A stretch of DNA of 64,000 nucleotides, taken from the IMG/VR virus record IMGVR_UViG_2913147268_000005; one strand, written 5' to 3'. This document shows, piece after piece, positions 58,401-64,000 of this stretch (position 1 is the first letter of the stretch; every line of letters begins with the position of its first letter). The position numbers are program-made. This DNA is from a virus. Lineage: Duplodnaviria; Heunggongvirae; Uroviricota; Caudoviricetes.

Positions 58401-61400
58401 GCGCTTCCGGTTGTGGCACTCCGCGAAATGGCGCGGCGGTAAGTATGGCGGGGTTATTCCTTCCTCCGTTGAGGACACCGGGTTGTCAGGTTGACCATAC
58501 GCTTAAGTGACAACTCCGCTGCAACGCCCTCTGTTATCAATTTTCTGGTGACGTTTGGCGGTATCAGTTTTACTCCGTGACTGCTCTGCCGCCCTTTTTA
58601 AAGTGAATTTTGTGATGTGGTGAATGCGGCTGAGCGCACGCGGAACAGTTAAAACCAAAAACAGTGTTATGGGTGGATTCTCTGTATCCGGCGTTAATTG
58701 TTAACTGGTTAACGTCACCTGGAGGCACCAGGCACCGCATCACAAAATTCATTGTTGAGGACGCGATAATGGAAACGTTATTACCAAACGTTAATACGTC
58801 TGAAGGTTGTTTTGAAATTGGTGTCAATATCAGTAACCCTGTATTTACTGAAGATGCCATTAACAAGAGAAAACACGAACGGGAGCTATTAAATAAAATA
58901 TGCATTCTTTCAATGCTGGCCCGTTTACGTCCGATACAAAAAGGATGCTGGCAATGAATACAGCATTTGCACTTGTTCTGACAGTTTTTCTTGTTTCCGG
59001 AGAGCCAGTTGATATTGCAGTCAGTGTTCACAGGACAATGCAGGAGTGTGTGACTGCAGCAACCGAACAGAAAATTCCCGGTAACTGTTACCCGGTCGAT
59101 AAAGTTATTCACCAGGATAATAACGAAATCCCGGCAGGTCTTTAAAACAGTTCCGTAATAAATATCCGGTTTCATTCTTATATGCCAGCAATGGCAGGGA
59201 TTTGTTCACCCTTAAATCTGTAATGAGGTAAAANNNNNNNNNNNNNNNNNNNNNNNNNNNNNNNNNNNNNNNNNNNNNNNNNNNNNNNNNNNNNNNNNNN
59301 NNNNNNNNNNNNNNNNNNNNNNNNNNNNNNNNNNNNNNNNNNNNNNNNNNNNNNNNNNNNNNNNNNNNNNNNNNNNNNNNNNNNNNNNNNNNNNNNNNNN
59401 NNNNNNNNNNNNNNNNNNNNNNNNNNNNNNNNNNNNNNNNNNNNNNNNNNNNNNNNNNNNNNNNNNNNNNNGTCTGCTTCCTTTGTCCCGGTTGAGACTG
59501 AATCCGATCCGATGAACGTCACTTTTGACAAGCTGGCCCCTGAAGTACAGAACGCTGTCATGGTTAAGTTCGACACATGTGAAAACATCACCGTTGATAT
59601 GGTTATTAGCGCACAGGAATTGTTGCAGGAAGACATGGCAACATTCGACGGACATATCGTTGAAGCGTTGATGAAAATGCCAGAAGTTAACGCCATGTAT
59701 CCGGAGCTTAAGCTGCATGCCATCGGGTGGGTTAAGCATAAATGTAAGCCTGGTGCCAAATGGCCCGAAATTCAGGCAGAGATGCGCATCTGGAAAAAAC
59801 GTCGTGAAGGTGAACGCAAGGAAACCGGAAAATACACGTCTGTTGTTGATCTCGCCCGCGCCAGAGCCAATCAACAGTACACTGAAAATTCAACAGGAAA
59901 AATCAGCCCGGTCATTGCTGCCATTCATCGCGAATACAAGCAGACATGGAAAACACTGGATGACGAACTGGCCTACGCTCTCTGGCCTGGTGATGTGGAT
60001 GCCGGAAACATTGACGGCAGCATCCATCGCTGGGCAAAAAATGAAGTTATCGACAACGACCGCGAAGACTGGAAGCGTATCTCGGCATCAATGCGCAAAC
60101 AGCCTGATGCCCTTCGCTACGACCGCCAGACTATTTTTGGCCTTGTCCGTGAACGTCCGATCGACATTCACAAAGACCCTGTGGCACTGAACAAATACAT
60201 TACTGAATACCTGACTACAAAGGGCGTGTTTGAAGATGAAGGAAGAAATCAGAGCGCAACTGATACTCTCTCGTCGCCAGTACCAGAAACTGATGCAGTG
60301 GAAACGGCAATTCCGGACAACGAAAAAACCGAATGCAAAGTGGAAGTCGAACCATCTGTAGAGCGTGAGGGGCCGTTCTACTTCCTCTTCACCGACAAGG
60401 ATGGCGAAAAATACGGTCGCGCAAACAAACTTTCTGGTCTGGATAAGGCGCTGGCTGCCGGGGCAACTGAAATCACGAAAGAAGAATATTTTGCCCGCAA
60501 AAACGGCACATACACAGGTTCACAACAAAATACTGATGCATCTGACACGACCGCACAACCAGACCTGGTAAAAGTTACCGCTGACGAAGTAAACAAAATT
60601 ATGCAGGCAGCCAGTATCAGCCAGCCTGACGCTAATAAGTTGCTCGCTGCATCACGTGGTGAATTTGTTGAAGGGATTAGCGACCCGAATGATCCGAAAT
60701 GGGTGAAGGGGATTGAAACCCGCGATTCTGTGCACCAGAACCAGTCAGAAACGGAACAGTACGACCAAAAAGCGGAACAAAACAGCCAAAATGCGTTACA
60801 AAACGAGCCAGAAACGAAACAACCTGAACCAGTCGTGCAACAGGAAGAGGAAAAAGTTTGTACCGCATGCAATCAGACTGGTGGTGGTAACTGCCCTGAT
60901 TGTGGCGCAGTGATGGGTGACGCAACCTACCAGGAGACATTCAACGAAGAAAGCCAGGATGAAGCCCGGGAAAAAGATCCAGAGGAAATAGAAAATGCCG
61001 GACTCCCGAACAAGGAGTGCACCGAAGGCGATCAACATGCCAATGACAATAATGAAATAGGCGAGACAGCAAATCCCTTAATTAAGGTGAACAGTCATCG
61101 TAAAAGCACATCCACCAGCAGGTTGTGGCACCATCTGATGATTGACCTTGAAACCATGGGAAAAAATCCTGATGCCCCGATTATCTCAATAGATGCAATA
61201 TTTTTCGATCCGCAAACCGGAGATATGGGACCGGAATTTAGTAAGACTATCGATCTGGAAACTGCTGGCGGAGTCATTGATCGTGACGTCATTAAAAGGT
61301 GGCTGAAGCAATCACGTGAAGCGCAGTCTGCCATTATGACCGATGAAATCCCGTTAGATGATGCACTGTTACAATTGCGGGAATTTATCGACGAAAACTC

Positions 61401-64000
61401 CGGTGAATTTTTTGTTCAGGTCTGGGGAAATGGAGCCAACTTCGACAACACAATTTTGCGCCGTTCATACGAACGGCAGGGGATCCCCTGCCCGTGGCGT
61501 TACTACAACGATCGCGATGTACGCACAATCGTTGAGCTGGGGAAAGCCATAGACTTCGATGCCAGAACGGCTATTCCATTCGAAGGTGAGCGCCATAATG
61601 CACTTGATGACGCCCGTTACCAGGCAAAATACGTTTCAGCTATCTGGCAAAAACTGATCCCGAGTCAGGCTGATTTTTAATGTTCAACCCTGATCGCCGC
61701 TAACCGCATATAGTTAGCGGCGGTTATGAGATATAGCTATGAGCAGCTTATTTTTAACCAAAGATGAATTGCTAATATTAACGGGCTGCAAATATGCAAG
61801 TCACCAGCGAAAATGGTTAATGGAAAACGGGCTTCCGTTCTATACCAATCGTAGTGGCAAACCGATTGTCAGCCGGGATCTATTTACCTGCAATAAAACT
61901 TTACCACCACGCGAGGTAGAGCCGAATTTTGGTGCGATCTGATGGGAAGACGAAGGAAAAATCCTGAACACGAAAAATTACCTCCAAATGTATACCCAAA
62001 TAAATATAGTTATGTATGGAAACCAACATCCAGAGAATCTGTAACACTAACCGCCATCAAGGATGGTTTAGCTGCTTTATGGAAAAAGTATGAGGAAACT
62101 GTAAATAATCGCGATCGTGCAATGACATTCGGTCGCTTGTGGGAAAAATTCCTCGCCAGCGCCTGTTACAGTGACCTTAGCCCAAGAACACAAAAAGATT
62201 ATCTGCAACATCAAAAAAAGTTGCTTGCCGTATTCGGTAAGGTACCAGCGGATTCCATAAAACCAGAACACATCCGTCGATACATGGACAAAAGAGGGGA
62301 ACAGAGCAAAACGCAAGCCAACCATGAAAAAAGCAGTATGTCCCGCGTTTACAGTTGGGGATATGAGCGAGGGTACGTGAAGGCTAACCCATGTGCAGGT
62401 GTAAGTAAATTCAAGGCCAAAAACCGCGAACGATATGTAACCGACAAAGAATACCAGGCAGTATTAAGCGTTGCACCTCTTCCTGTTTTTATCGCAATGG
62501 AAATTGCCTATCTGTGTGCAGCGAGGGTTTCCGATGTGTTATCACTGAAATGGGAGCAGATTGGAAACGACGGGATCTTTATCCAGCAAGGGAAAACAGG
62601 GAAAAAACAGATAAAAGCATGGAGTCCACGATTACAGGCGGCGATCGAAAAAGCAAAACAGTTACCAGCATCCGTCTATGTAATCAGCAATCAATATGGC
62701 AACCGATATATGTACAAAGGCTTTAACGAAATGTGGGTAGAAGCAAGAAATCGCGCAGGCAAAATTTCAGGTATTTTAACCGACTTCACCTTTCATGATC
62801 TGAAGGCGAAAGGAATTTCAGACTATGAAGGAAGCAGCCGGGATAAGCAACTTTTCTCTGGTCACAAAACCGAGGGGCAAGTGCTAATCTATGACAGGAA
62901 GGTTAAAGTTTCACCAACACTTGATGTCCCGTTACCTGAAAATATTCCAAGAAAATATTCCAAGTAATTCCAAGTGTGATTTTTGTCACTGACTTAATGA
63001 TGTGTAAGTGATTGAATTTTGGCGGAGAGAGGGGGATTTGAACCCCCGGTGGAGTTGCCCCCACTCCGGTTTTCGAGACCGGTCCGTTCAGCCGCTCCGG
63101 CATCTCTCCGTTCAGATGGTTGCCATGATGCCAGGAAATTTGGCATTTTAACAGTCCCTGTCCGTGCAATTTTGTTCAAGTGACGAGTTTGCGAGCAAAA
63201 CGATGATTAAGTGGCCCTGGAAAGTACAAGAATCAGCACATCAAACTGCCCTTCCCTGGCAGGAAGCACTATCGATCCCCCTTTTAACGTGTCTGACAGA
63301 ACAGGAACAAAGCAAATTGGTCGCTCTTGCCGAACGTTTTTTACAGCAAAAACGGCTTGTTCCTTTACAGGGCTTTGAGCTGAATTCATTAAGAAGCTGC
63401 CGGATAGCACTTCTATTTTGCCTGCCCGTTCTGGAGTTAGGACTGGAATGGCTGGATGGTTTTCATGAAATCTTAATTTATCCTGCGCCATTTGTGGTCG
63501 ATGATGAATGGGAAGACGATATCGGTCTGGTGCATAACCAACGTATTGTTCAGTCAGGTCAGAGCTGGCAGCAAGGGCCTATCGTTTTGAACTGGTTGGA
63601 TATACAAGATTCTTTTGATGCTTCTGGTTTTAACCTGATTATTCATGAAGTCGCTCATAAGCTGGACACCCGTAACGGCGATCGCGCCAGCGGAGTTCCC
63701 TTTATTTCGTTGCGTGAGGTTGCTGGCTGGGAACACGATCTTCATGCTGCAATGAACAACATTCAGGAAGAAATCGAATTAGTTGGTGAGAATGCGGCGA
63801 GCATTGATGCTTATGCTGCCAGTGATCCTGCTGAATGTTTTGCCGTACTTTCTGAATATTTCTTTAGCGCCCCAGAACTTTTTGCTCCTCGTTTCCCTTC
63901 ATTGTGGCAACGTTTCTGTCAATTTTATCAACAAGATCCTTTGCAGAGACTGCATCACGCTAATGATACAGACTCGTTTTCGGCGACGAATGTTCATTAA

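What the first reader, a model, noticed from the sequence alone, without database searches (positions are those of the whole stretch)
59512..61680. 722-aa early-left-operon protein with a C-terminal DEDDh exonuclease domain and an acidic low-complexity linker
The C-terminal ~190 aa carry DnaQ-like 3'-5' exonuclease motifs (DxE, NGxxFD, HxxxD), whereas the N-terminal 500 aa are unassigned and include a long Glu/Gln/Asp-rich segment. The 5' end abuts a 238-N gap, so the true start is uncertain.
Basis: partly seen in the sequence, partly recalled or inferred. Interest (0 to 1): 0.4.

Follow-up and report, generated by a model that had tools for sequence, protein, structure and literature searches.

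The report
Prophage RecE-like 3'-5' exonuclease (intact ydfE)
This is the common "exonuclease" gene of DicB-type lambdoid prophages of E. coli, the intact form of the K-12 pseudogene ydfE; it joins a RecE-like scaffold to a DexA/DnaQ-type 3'-5' exonuclease domain, it is already catalogued, and nobody has tested what it does.

Summary
Its last ~175 aa match Pfam Rv2179c-like (PF16473, E=4.7e-62), and all five DEDDh catalytic residues are present. The ATG at 59512 is internal. Relatives that are 98-99.6% identical encode 823 aa, and their start codon lies about 5 nt inside the N-run. That run hides 267 nt but is only 238 N long.

The gene is the intact orthologue of the K-12 Qin pseudogene ydfE. 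It sits in the order cI-like repressor, ydfABC, DicF, dicB, ydfD, [gene], DUF4224, int, tRNA-Ser.

The acidic linker and a CxxC-x7-CxxC motif are shared with the central region of Rac RecE. RecE's N-terminal domain, its PD-(D/E)XK nuclease and a recT partner are all absent. Relatives elsewhere combine either N-terminus (YdfE-type or RecE-type) with either nuclease, so the protein is a shuffled modular family.

The closest solved structure is T4 DexA, a 3'-5' DNA exonuclease. The residues reported for the 5hmC-specific "HREX" defence homologue EcD are not conserved here.

The most likely function is a scaffold-tethered 3'-5' exonuclease acting on nucleic-acid ends early in prophage induction. 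That role is inferred, not shown. The gene covers at least 80% of the query in 3293 of 5426 complete E. coli genomes. Interest is low to moderate.

The parts
59225..59229 (+). GAGGT Shine-Dalgarno for the true start codon, which lies about 5 nt inside the gap
   Evidence: DNA alignment with three relatives shows GAGGT-aaaacaaa-ATG. That it functions as a ribosome-binding site is inferred.
59234..59471 (.). N-run of 238 N that hides the start codon and the first ~88 codons (the YdfE_N domain). The real sequence in relatives is 267 nt.
59472..59511 (+). In-frame coding sequence upstream of the reported ATG. It reads SASFVPVETESDP, which is full-length aa 89-101.
59512..60231 (+). YdfE-type N-terminal helical domains (full-length aa 102-341). 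Most of this stretch is modelled confidently by AF2.
   Evidence: 98% identity of the relative P0008 to K-12 ydfE. PF27432 YdfE_C is precomputed on relatives that are at least 98% identical. AF2 pLDDT is about 71-91 for aa 102-200 and 240-340.
60361..60513 (+). Small conserved beta-hairpin/helix module, ER.GPFY...GRANK...EI..EEY.ARKNG (full-length aa 385-435)
   Evidence: Invariant columns R386, G388, P389, F390, Y391, G403, R404, N406, K407, E421 and I422 across 36 sequences. pLDDT 78-87.
60637..61083 (+). Region shared with the centre of RecE, including KLLAASRGEFVEGISDPNDPKWVKGI (full-length aa 477-625)
   Evidence: BLASTP against K-12 RecE: 38% identity over full-length aa 262-625, E=2e-56, and visibly near-identical in the last ~150 aa by my reading of the alignment. 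DNA identity 71%. Partial NCBIfam RecE hit.
60721..61128 (+). Acidic, Gln/Asn-rich low-complexity linker, predicted disordered
   Evidence: Composition. pLDDT below 50.
60859..60909 (+). CTAC-x7-CPDC four-cysteine motif, a putative zinc ribbon, conserved in RecE
   Evidence: Zinc binding is inferred.
61129..61647 (+). DEDDh 3'-5' exonuclease domain (Pfam Rv2179c-like)
   Evidence: E=4.7e-62. phmmer to T4 DexA structure 8KEL, E=4.6e-5.
61144..61152 (+). Exo motif I, D545-L-E547 (full-length D646/E648)
   Evidence: Invariant in alignments A1 and A6.
61444..61446 (+). Exo motif II Asp (NGANFD645, full-length D746)
   Evidence: Invariant.
61594..61611 (+). Exo motif III, H695-x4-D700 (full-length H796/D801)
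   Evidence: His invariant and Asp conserved in at least 90% of sequences.
61678..61680 (+). Stop codon

Best explanation
What is shown. The gene is the intact form of ydfE, the "exonuclease" of DicB/Qin-type lambdoid prophages. It encodes an 823-aa modular protein. Its first ~101 aa are lost in the assembly gap. The protein has these parts, in order:
- YdfE-type N-terminal domains.
- A small conserved GPFY...ARKNG module.
- A disordered acidic linker with a four-cysteine motif. This part is shared with the central region of RecE.
- A C-terminal DexA/Rv2179c-family DEDDh domain with a complete D-E-D-H-D catalytic set.

The gene occupies the slot that recE-recT holds in Rac: the last large gene of the repressor-controlled early-left operon, just before xis/int. 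No annealase is present.

What is inferred. The C-terminal domain is probably an active, metal-dependent 3'-5' exonuclease. The RecE-type scaffold probably tethers or targets it, to DNA ends or to a host partner. If so, the protein trims 3' ends of DNA when the operon is derepressed. That would make it an end-processing or DNA-degrading activity comparable to T4 DexA. It would not be a 5'-3' resection and annealing recombinase like RecET.
For: Identity and extent:
- establish the ORF, the gap and the true 823-aa length.
- One search shows 98% identity to K-12 ydfE.
- establish the operon context.

Nuclease domain:
- PF16473 at 209 bits.
- the catalytic residues are invariant.
- T4 DexA (8KEL) is the only solved relative found with a single sequence.
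- a profile search also reaches DnaQ and oligoribonuclease.

Link to RecE:
-.

Interchangeable modules:
- PF06630 N-terminus with DEDDh: P0123, P0125, P0137.
- YdfE-type N-terminus with PD-(D/E)XK: P0138.
- YdfE-type N-terminus with DEDDh: this protein.

Other support:
- A stand-alone 55%-identical homologue sits between erf-ssb and abc2 in Salmonella phage c341.
- DexA's known roles are host-DNA scavenging and exonucleolytic processing in intron homing (PMC12153337).
- Tens of thousands of intact 823-aa copies exist (cluster sizes). At least 80% of the query is covered in 3293 of 5426 complete genomes.
Against: - No activity data exist for this protein.
- DNA versus RNA preference cannot be read from sequence. 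The family founder Rv2179c is an exoribonuclease (my own knowledge and the Pfam name).
- No annealase lies in either early operon, so a classical recombination role is doubtful.
- Contexts of stand-alone homologues are mixed, and only one of the five stand-alone contexts examined is a recombination module.
- The function of RecE's N-terminal and central region is itself unknown (PMC11611040).
- The N-terminal domains have no structural relative in the PDB or BFVD, so the "targeting scaffold" idea is pure inference.
- The AF2 model of the DEDDh part was poor because the alignment was polluted there.
Confidence: 0.55

Rival explanations
1. Prophage-encoded anti-phage defence of the HREX type. 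The DEDDh domain would selectively degrade modified (5hmC-type) DNA of superinfecting T-even phages, as reported for the stand-alone E. coli DexA homologue EcD.
For: - The nuclease family is the same as DexA and EcD (PMC12153337).
- The gene shares an operon with dicB, which is itself reported to protect against phage (PMC6832061, title listed).
- The gene is kept intact in most E. coli genomes even though many host prophages are defective.
Against: - The determinants named in the paper are not conserved. DexA W152 aligns to Tyr and D169 aligns to Ala. D90, which is lost in EcD, is retained as Asp (the loop alignment is uncertain).
- The architecture differs: an 823-aa fusion against a protein of about 190 aa.
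- The operon is repressor-controlled, so the gene may not be expressed in a lysogen.
- There is no PADLOC hit.
- The EcD sequence could not be retrieved for direct comparison.
Confidence: 0.2
2. A 3'-5' exoribonuclease like Rv2179c or oligoribonuclease. It would act on RNA 3' ends, for example host or phage transcripts, sRNAs, or oligoribonucleotide or nucleotide signals.
For: - The Pfam family is named for an exoribonuclease.
- The profile search reaches oligoribonuclease/REXO2 at E of about 0.01-0.03.
- The position aligned with DexA F151/W152 is Tyr-Tyr. The DexA paper's supplement aligns these DexA residues with H163/Y164 of REXO2.
- PGAP names the protein a 3'-5' exoribonuclease-domain protein.
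Against: - The only solved relative found by single-sequence search is a DNA exonuclease.
- The domain swaps with a DNA exonuclease, the RecE PD-(D/E)XK domain, on the same scaffold.
- A stand-alone homologue lies inside a DNA-recombination module.
Confidence: 0.12
3. A decaying relic with no current function, carried along in defective prophages.
For: - The K-12 copy is an IS2-disrupted pseudogene with no known phenotype.
- Many database entries are truncated.
- Some close alleles carry Glu instead of the motif II Asp.
Against: - The reading frame is intact over all 2169+40 nt visible here.
- Only 2 aa differ from a relative found at a different integration site.
- All catalytic residues are kept.
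- Very large clusters of full-length 823-aa copies exist.
- The gene is also present in phage genome records such as mEp460_ev081, Tritos and HannyBb.
- Most "partial" entries lie at contig ends and are assembly artefacts.
Confidence: 0.05

Closest known systems
YdfE of the E. coli K-12 cryptic prophage Qin (b1577, pseudogene)
   Same: It is the same gene. Identity is 98% over aa 1-255 through the relative P0008, and the flanks are the same: dicF, dicB, ydfD upstream and int downstream.
   Different: The K-12 copy is cut by IS2E after about 255-300 codons. It therefore lacks the RecE-like centre and the exonuclease domain. The window copy is complete apart from the assembly gap.
RecE (exodeoxyribonuclease VIII) of the Rac prophage
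   Same: It holds the same operon slot. It shares the central region (38% overall, near-identical by eye across the PNDPKWVKGI motif, the acidic tract and the CxxC...CxxC motif). It has the same overall plan of a long non-catalytic N-terminal part plus a C-terminal nuclease.
   Different: RecE has a PF06630 N-terminal domain and a PD-(D/E)XK 5'-3' dsDNA exonuclease, and it is followed by recT. This protein has a YdfE-type N-terminus and a DEDDh nuclease expected to have the opposite polarity, and it has no annealase. It scores 254 bits against the NCBIfam RecE cut-off of 1269.
Bacteriophage T4 DexA (exonuclease A; PDB 8KEL/8KEN)
   Same: It has the same DEDDh family and fold and the same conserved catalytic residues. 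It is the only solved relative found with a single sequence.
   Different: Identity is about 23-27%. DexA is a stand-alone 227-aa protein with extra loops. W152 and D169 are not conserved here.
EcD / HREX (E. coli DexA homologue, Kang et al., NAR 2025, PMC12153337)
   Same: It is an E. coli-encoded member of the same exonuclease family and is reported to protect against T4.
   Different: EcD is a stand-alone protein. The reported determinants (Trp, Asp, loss of D90) are not matched here. The two sequences could not be compared directly.
Rv2179c of M. tuberculosis, founder of Pfam PF16473
   Same: It belongs to the same Pfam family. The window protein matches the full-length profile, positions 1-177 of 177.
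   Different: Rv2179c is a stand-alone cellular exoribonuclease (my own knowledge). It was not recovered in my PDB sequence searches.
Stand-alone phage and prophage 3'-5' exonucleases of about 180-190 aa (for example Salmonella phage c341 gene 29, and E. coli P0496 and P0498)
   Same: They are 55-74% identical to the C-terminal domain. P0496 is identical over roughly its last ~90 aa apart from the final residues. The c341 copy lies in an erf-ssb-exo-abc2 module.
   Different: They have no scaffold, and their genomic contexts are varied.

Membership tests
DEDDh 3'-5' exonuclease, Rv2179c-like/DexA family (Pfam PF16473) | Profile match above the curated gathering score over the whole domain | tested here: met
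   209.3 bits against a cut-off of 27, E=4.7e-62, profile positions 1-177 of 177.
DEDDh 3'-5' exonuclease, Rv2179c-like/DexA family (Pfam PF16473) | Four acidic residues plus His in Exo motifs I-III (D-x-E, D, H-x4-D) | tested here: met
   Window-protein D545, E547, D645, H695 and D700. D, E, D and H are invariant, and the last Asp is conserved in at least 90% of 46 sequences including T4 DexA.
DEDDh 3'-5' exonuclease, Rv2179c-like/DexA family (Pfam PF16473) | Sequence relationship to a solved member | tested here: met
   phmmer to 8KEL (T4 DexA), E=4.6e-5. The 3e-46 value is inflated because DexA was in the profile.
DEDDh 3'-5' exonuclease, Rv2179c-like/DexA family (Pfam PF16473) | Metal-dependent 3'-5' exonuclease activity and substrate type | not testable with these tools
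   This needs an enzyme assay.
RecE / exodeoxyribonuclease VIII (NCBIfam NF007259) | Whole-protein score at or above the equivalog cut-off | tested here: not met
   253.7 bits against 1269. Only profile positions 271-602 of 877 are matched.
RecE / exodeoxyribonuclease VIII (NCBIfam NF007259) | C-terminal PD-(D/E)XK 5'-3' nuclease (PF12684) and N-terminal PF06630 domain | tested here: not met
   Both are found in K-12 RecE and neither is found in this protein.
RecE / exodeoxyribonuclease VIII (NCBIfam NF007259) | Adjacent recT-type annealase | tested here: not met
   The next genes are DUF4224 and the integrase. No single-strand annealing protein is seen in the early-left or early-right operon.
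RecE / exodeoxyribonuclease VIII (NCBIfam NF007259) | Homology of the central non-catalytic region | tested here: met
   BLASTP E=2e-56, full-length aa 262-625 against RecE 278-591.
HREX / EcD-type 5hmC-DNA exonuclease defence | Trp and Asp equivalent to DexA W152 and D169 (5hmC recognition) | tested here: not met
   They align to Tyr and Ala. The D169 loop alignment is uncertain.
HREX / EcD-type 5hmC-DNA exonuclease defence | Loss of the tetramer-forming Asp (DexA D90 to Ala in EcD) | tested here: not met
   Asp is retained at the aligned position.
HREX / EcD-type 5hmC-DNA exonuclease defence | Selective cleavage of 5hmC DNA and protection against T4 | not testable with these tools
   This needs an assay. 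The EcD sequence (HAK9828821.1) could not be retrieved.
YdfE family (Pfam PF27430 YdfE_N and PF27432 YdfE_C) | Orthology to K-12 ydfE and presence of the YdfE domains | tested here: met
   98% identity of the 98%-identical relative P0008 to ydfE. DNA is identical at the gap edges. PF27432 is precomputed on proteins 98-100% identical to the window protein, and PF27430 only on full-length ones. The local Pfam copy lacks these two models, so this evidence is indirect. YdfE_N lies in the gap.

The most novel reading that the evidence does not exclude
The RecE/YdfE-type N-terminal and central region may be a general delivery scaffold that prophages equip with interchangeable effectors: a 5'-3' PD-(D/E)XK nuclease, a 3'-5' DEDDh nuclease, or other C-terminal domains of unknown fold. 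In that reading the DEDDh version, which has no annealase partner, is not a recombinase at all. It would be an end-targeted DNA-degrading weapon, used for superinfection defence or to destroy linear DNA, and missing from K-12 only because of an IS2 insertion.
Probability: 0.15. Interest if true: 0.55.

Novelty: already known. Interest (0 to 1): 0.25.

Why it matters
The gene is one of the most widespread prophage genes in E. coli. It covers at least 80% of the query in about 61% of complete genomes. Despite this it has never been characterised, probably because the K-12 copy is a pseudogene.

It carries the still-unexplained N-terminal and central region of RecE, but with a nuclease of the opposite polarity and no annealase. 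Comparing the two could show what that region does. Full-length RecE is known to enhance linear-linear recombination in recombineering (PMC11611040).

A recent report that a stand-alone E. coli homologue defends against T4 makes a defence role directly testable in K-12.

As a scan finding, however, this is an ordinary, correctly interpreted and already-annotated gene.

Tried and rejected
1. Retrieving EcD (HAK9828821.1).
- I looked for its sequence in the paper's supplement.
- I then searched for exact matches to the published primers in viral, genome and metagenome contigs.
- Only chance matches came back (L004 and L010; L004 was checked, L010 was not inspected).
- The stand-alone E. coli homologues I did obtain do not start with IDTET, so they are not EcD.

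2. My idea that the C-terminal domain of the YdfE-type proteins of Enterobacter and Klebsiella is a Rad52-like annealase.
- The Pfam Rad52_Rad22 hit is sub-threshold (E=0.033).
- A profile search of the PDB found nothing.
- The AF2 model of P0303 is confident (pLDDT 74) but has no Foldseek match below E=0.28.
- The idea is not supported.

3. Fold of the N-terminal scaffold.
- The AF2 model has confident N-terminal domains.
- Foldseek found nothing significant in the PDB or BFVD.

4. The DEDDh part of that model was poor, because the unrelated C-termini of the N-terminal homologues polluted the alignment there. No structural claim rests on it.

5. PADLOC gave no defence-system match.

6. Promoter and terminator scans around the gene gave counts at or below those of shuffled sequence.

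7. Literature searches found nothing functional.
- Searches for ydfE, dicBF and Rv2179c-like gave no functional study of this protein.
- One search was wasted on a word-start match to "receptor".

8. A second alignment that mixed stand-alone DEDDh proteins with the full-length set (A4) aligned the middle region badly. I did not use it.

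
Full report
**Observation.**
- The ORF at 59512..61680 (+), 722 aa, is present exactly as described.
- The N-run upstream is 59234..59471, 238 N.
- The C-terminal 173 aa (window-protein aa 540-712, nt 61129-61647) match Pfam PF16473, "3'-5' exoribonuclease Rv2179c-like domain". The match is E=4.7e-62 and 209 bits against a gathering score of 27, and it covers the whole profile.
- The general RNase_T model PF00929 reaches only 17.6 bits, below its cut-off of 24.
- In alignments with stand-alone homologues and T4 DexA, the Asp, Glu, Asp and His are invariant. The last Asp is conserved in at least 90% of sequences.
- The linker is real. Window aa 404-539 are 21% Asp+Glu and 21% Gln+Asn, with net charge -18. 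AF2 models it as disordered.

**True extent of the gene.**
- The ATG at 59512 is an internal methionine. The frame is open from the gap edge (59472) and reads SASFVPVETESDP.
- The same gene in E. coli CUVET17-1136 is 99.6% identical over the query, and its protein differs from the visible protein by two residues. The gene is also in strain AZ 190. In both it is 2472 nt and encodes 823 aa.
- Aligning the gap edges with three relatives shows that the gap hides 267 nt. The ATG lies 5 nt after the left edge, preceded by a GAGGT still visible at 59225-59229.
- The N-run is therefore 29 nt too short and breaks the frame. It is a sized scaffold gap, not real sequence length.
- Many database proteins 100% identical to the window protein are "partial" entries of 630-683 aa. 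The query region occurs a median of twice per genome, and up to nine times.
- My inference is that the 5' part of the gene is a multi-copy prophage repeat on which short-read assemblies break.

**Identity and context.**
- The first 255 aa of the full-length relative P0008 (98% identical to the window protein) are 98% identical to the K-12 Qin pseudogene ydfE. That copy is truncated by IS2E.
- The window has the Qin gene order:
  - cI-like HTH/S24 repressor (56624-57397)
  - ydfA (DUF1391), and ORFs at the positions of ydfB and ydfC (these two identified by synteny with relatives; ydfC has no Pfam hit)
  - DicF sRNA (58543-58594, Rfam 76.7 bits)
  - dicB (58769-58957)
  - ydfD (DUF1482, 58954-59145)
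  - this gene
  - a DUF4224 protein (61739-61942)
  - a tyrosine integrase (61942-62967)
  - tRNA-Ser(cga) (63020-63109, minus strand)
  - mtfA
.
- "Early-left operon" is therefore correct by synteny with lambda, Rac and Qin.
- The gene holds the slot that recE-recT holds in Rac, but no annealase follows it.
- No annealase is seen in the early-right operon either. That operon encodes an HTH protein (HTH_36), a DnaC-like ATPase, DUF1627, DUF977, QueH, DUF968/HNH, RusA and a Q antiterminator.

**Anatomy of the non-catalytic part.**
- Precomputed Pfam hits on near-identical proteins give PF27430 (YdfE_N, present only in full-length copies and so inside the gap) and PF27432 (YdfE_C). My local Pfam copy lacks these two models.
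- AF2 with 36 sequences models four confident pieces:
  - aa 1-90, an alpha/beta unit
  - aa 102-200, helical
  - aa 240-340, helical
  - aa 385-435, a small beta-hairpin/helix module
- The last module carries the invariant residues R386, G388-P-F-Y391, G403-R, N406-K and E421-I422.
- The segments between these pieces, and aa 439-547 and 572-640, are predicted disordered.
- Foldseek found no significant relative of any of these pieces in the PDB or BFVD.

**Relationship to RecE and module shuffling.**
- BLASTP against K-12 RecE aligns full-length aa 262-625 with RecE 278-591 at 38% identity and E=2e-56.
- The alignment is visibly near-identical (my reading, not a computed figure) across three stretches: KLLAASRGEFV[ED]GISDPNDPKWVKGI, the acidic tract, and C-x2-C-x7-C-x2-C followed by GAVMGDATYQETF.
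- DNA identity over the matching stretch is 71%.
- RecE's PF06630 N-terminal domain and its PD-(D/E)XK nuclease (PF12684) are absent here.
- A scan of 1.84 billion representative proteins found all combinations:
  - RecE-type N-terminus with DEDDh: P0123, P0125, P0137
  - YdfE-type N-terminus with PD-(D/E)XK: P0138
  - YdfE-type N-terminus with DEDDh: this protein
  - YdfE-type N-terminus with two further C-terminal domains that have no Pfam match: P0142/P0148/P0303, and P0129
- Inside the N-terminal part, one sub-module also exists in a YdfE version and a RecE version.
- The family is therefore a mosaic in which scaffold and effector are exchanged independently.

**The nuclease family.**
- With a single sequence, the only solved relative is T4 DexA (8KEL/8KEN), at E=4.6e-5.
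- A profile search adds DnaQ (4.6e-5) and oligoribonuclease/REXO2 (about 0.01-0.03). The DexA E-value in that search is inflated because DexA was in the profile.
- tblastn finds the domain in 1196 of 50,697 phage records, mostly as stand-alone proteins of about 180-190 aa.
- Kang et al. (NAR 2025, PMC12153337) report three things:
  - W152 and D169 give recognition of 5hmC DNA.
  - A stand-alone E. coli homologue, EcD, cleaves only 5hmC DNA and protects against T4 ("HREX").
- In my alignment W152 corresponds to Tyr, D169 to Ala, and D90 (Ala in EcD) is still Asp. The reported HREX determinants are therefore not met. The loop alignment is uncertain, and I could not obtain EcD itself.
- Contexts of stand-alone homologues are mixed:
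  - erf-ssb-[exo]-abc2 in Salmonella phage c341
  - just before the integrase in phage 118970_sal3
  - in the early operon of P2-like phages
  - next to a PAPS-reductase-like gene in Cronobacter phage JC01

**Mechanism.**
- Shown: a complete DEDDh catalytic set on a RecE-related scaffold, in a repressor-controlled early operon, with no annealase.
- Inferred: an active metal-dependent 3'-5' exonuclease that is tethered or targeted by the scaffold and trims 3' ends of DNA after derepression.
- I put 0.55 on this statement. The enzymatic part is much more likely than that. The biological role is much less certain.
- The rivals are an HREX-like defence against modified-DNA phages (0.2), an RNA 3' exonuclease (0.12), and a functionless relic (0.05).

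**Novelty.**
- The protein is 98-100% identical to database entries that PGAP already names "exonuclease" or "3'-5' exoribonuclease domain-containing protein".
- It belongs to phrog_2082.
- At least 80% of the query is covered in 3293 of 5426 complete E. coli genomes.
- I found no functional study of it. It is catalogued but uncharacterised.
- The module-swap picture and the link to RecE's unexplained N-terminal region are the only points a specialist might find useful.

Noticed in passing
window 58543-58594 (+): A DicF sRNA gene (Rfam RF00039, 76.7 bits) lies upstream of dicB and ydfD. The whole dicBF operon of Qin is therefore present and intact in this prophage.
   Followed up: partly
window 31806-32045, 33237-33246, 47406-47415: Three further N-runs of 240, 10 and 10 N. 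The window is a scaffolded draft. Other prophage genes may be truncated in the same way as this one.
   Followed up: no
window 61695-61722 (+): A perfect 10-bp inverted repeat, CGCCGCTAAC/GTTAGCGGCG, with an 8-nt loop lies 15 nt after the stop codon. No T-run follows it, so it is not a canonical terminator. It could be an RNA-stabilising or processing hairpin.
   Followed up: partly
window 52183-52869 (-): The prophage early-right region encodes a QueH-like epoxyqueuosine reductase (PF02677, E=1e-65), an unusual queuosine-pathway gene for a lambdoid prophage.
   Followed up: no
L011 6001-8307 (Klebsiella oxytoca; protein P0303), and P0142, P0148 and P0280-P0365: Many proteins of about 760-800 aa in Enterobacter, Klebsiella and Kosakonia are annotated "exodeoxyribonuclease VIII". 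They have the YdfE-type N-terminus but no detectable nuclease domain. Their ~280-aa C-terminal domain folds confidently in AF2 and has no PDB match. The only hint is a sub-threshold Rad52_Rad22 hit (E=0.033). A Sipho_Gp157 gene follows. The annotation is probably wrong.
   Followed up: partly
L009 2995-3555 (Escherichia phage ESSI2_ev239): A P2-like phage protein annotated "3'-5' exoribonuclease" keeps Exo motif I. By eye it appears to lack the motif II Asp (NGCPSLH) and has no evident H-x4-D motif. It may be catalytically dead.
   Followed up: no
relatives P0008, P0006, P0012 (aa 746): Some alleles 95-98% identical to the window protein carry NGANFE instead of NGANFD, a Glu in place of the motif II metal-binding Asp. 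The window copy has Asp.
   Followed up: no
protein P0496 (E. coli, 185 aa) against window 61400-61680: A stand-alone E. coli exonuclease is identical to this protein over roughly its last ~90 aa (apart from the final residues) but differs in the N-terminal half of the domain. This points to recombination between stand-alone and fused gene forms.
   Followed up: no
window 61739-63109 against L002 7175-8531: The near-identical exonuclease gene occurs with two different integration modules. Here and in strain AZ 190 it is DUF4224 plus an integrase at tRNA-Ser next to mtfA. In the listed near-identical hits (L002 examined) it is an excisionase plus an Arm-type integrase at ompW. The identity break falls just after the gene's stop codon.
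   Followed up: partly
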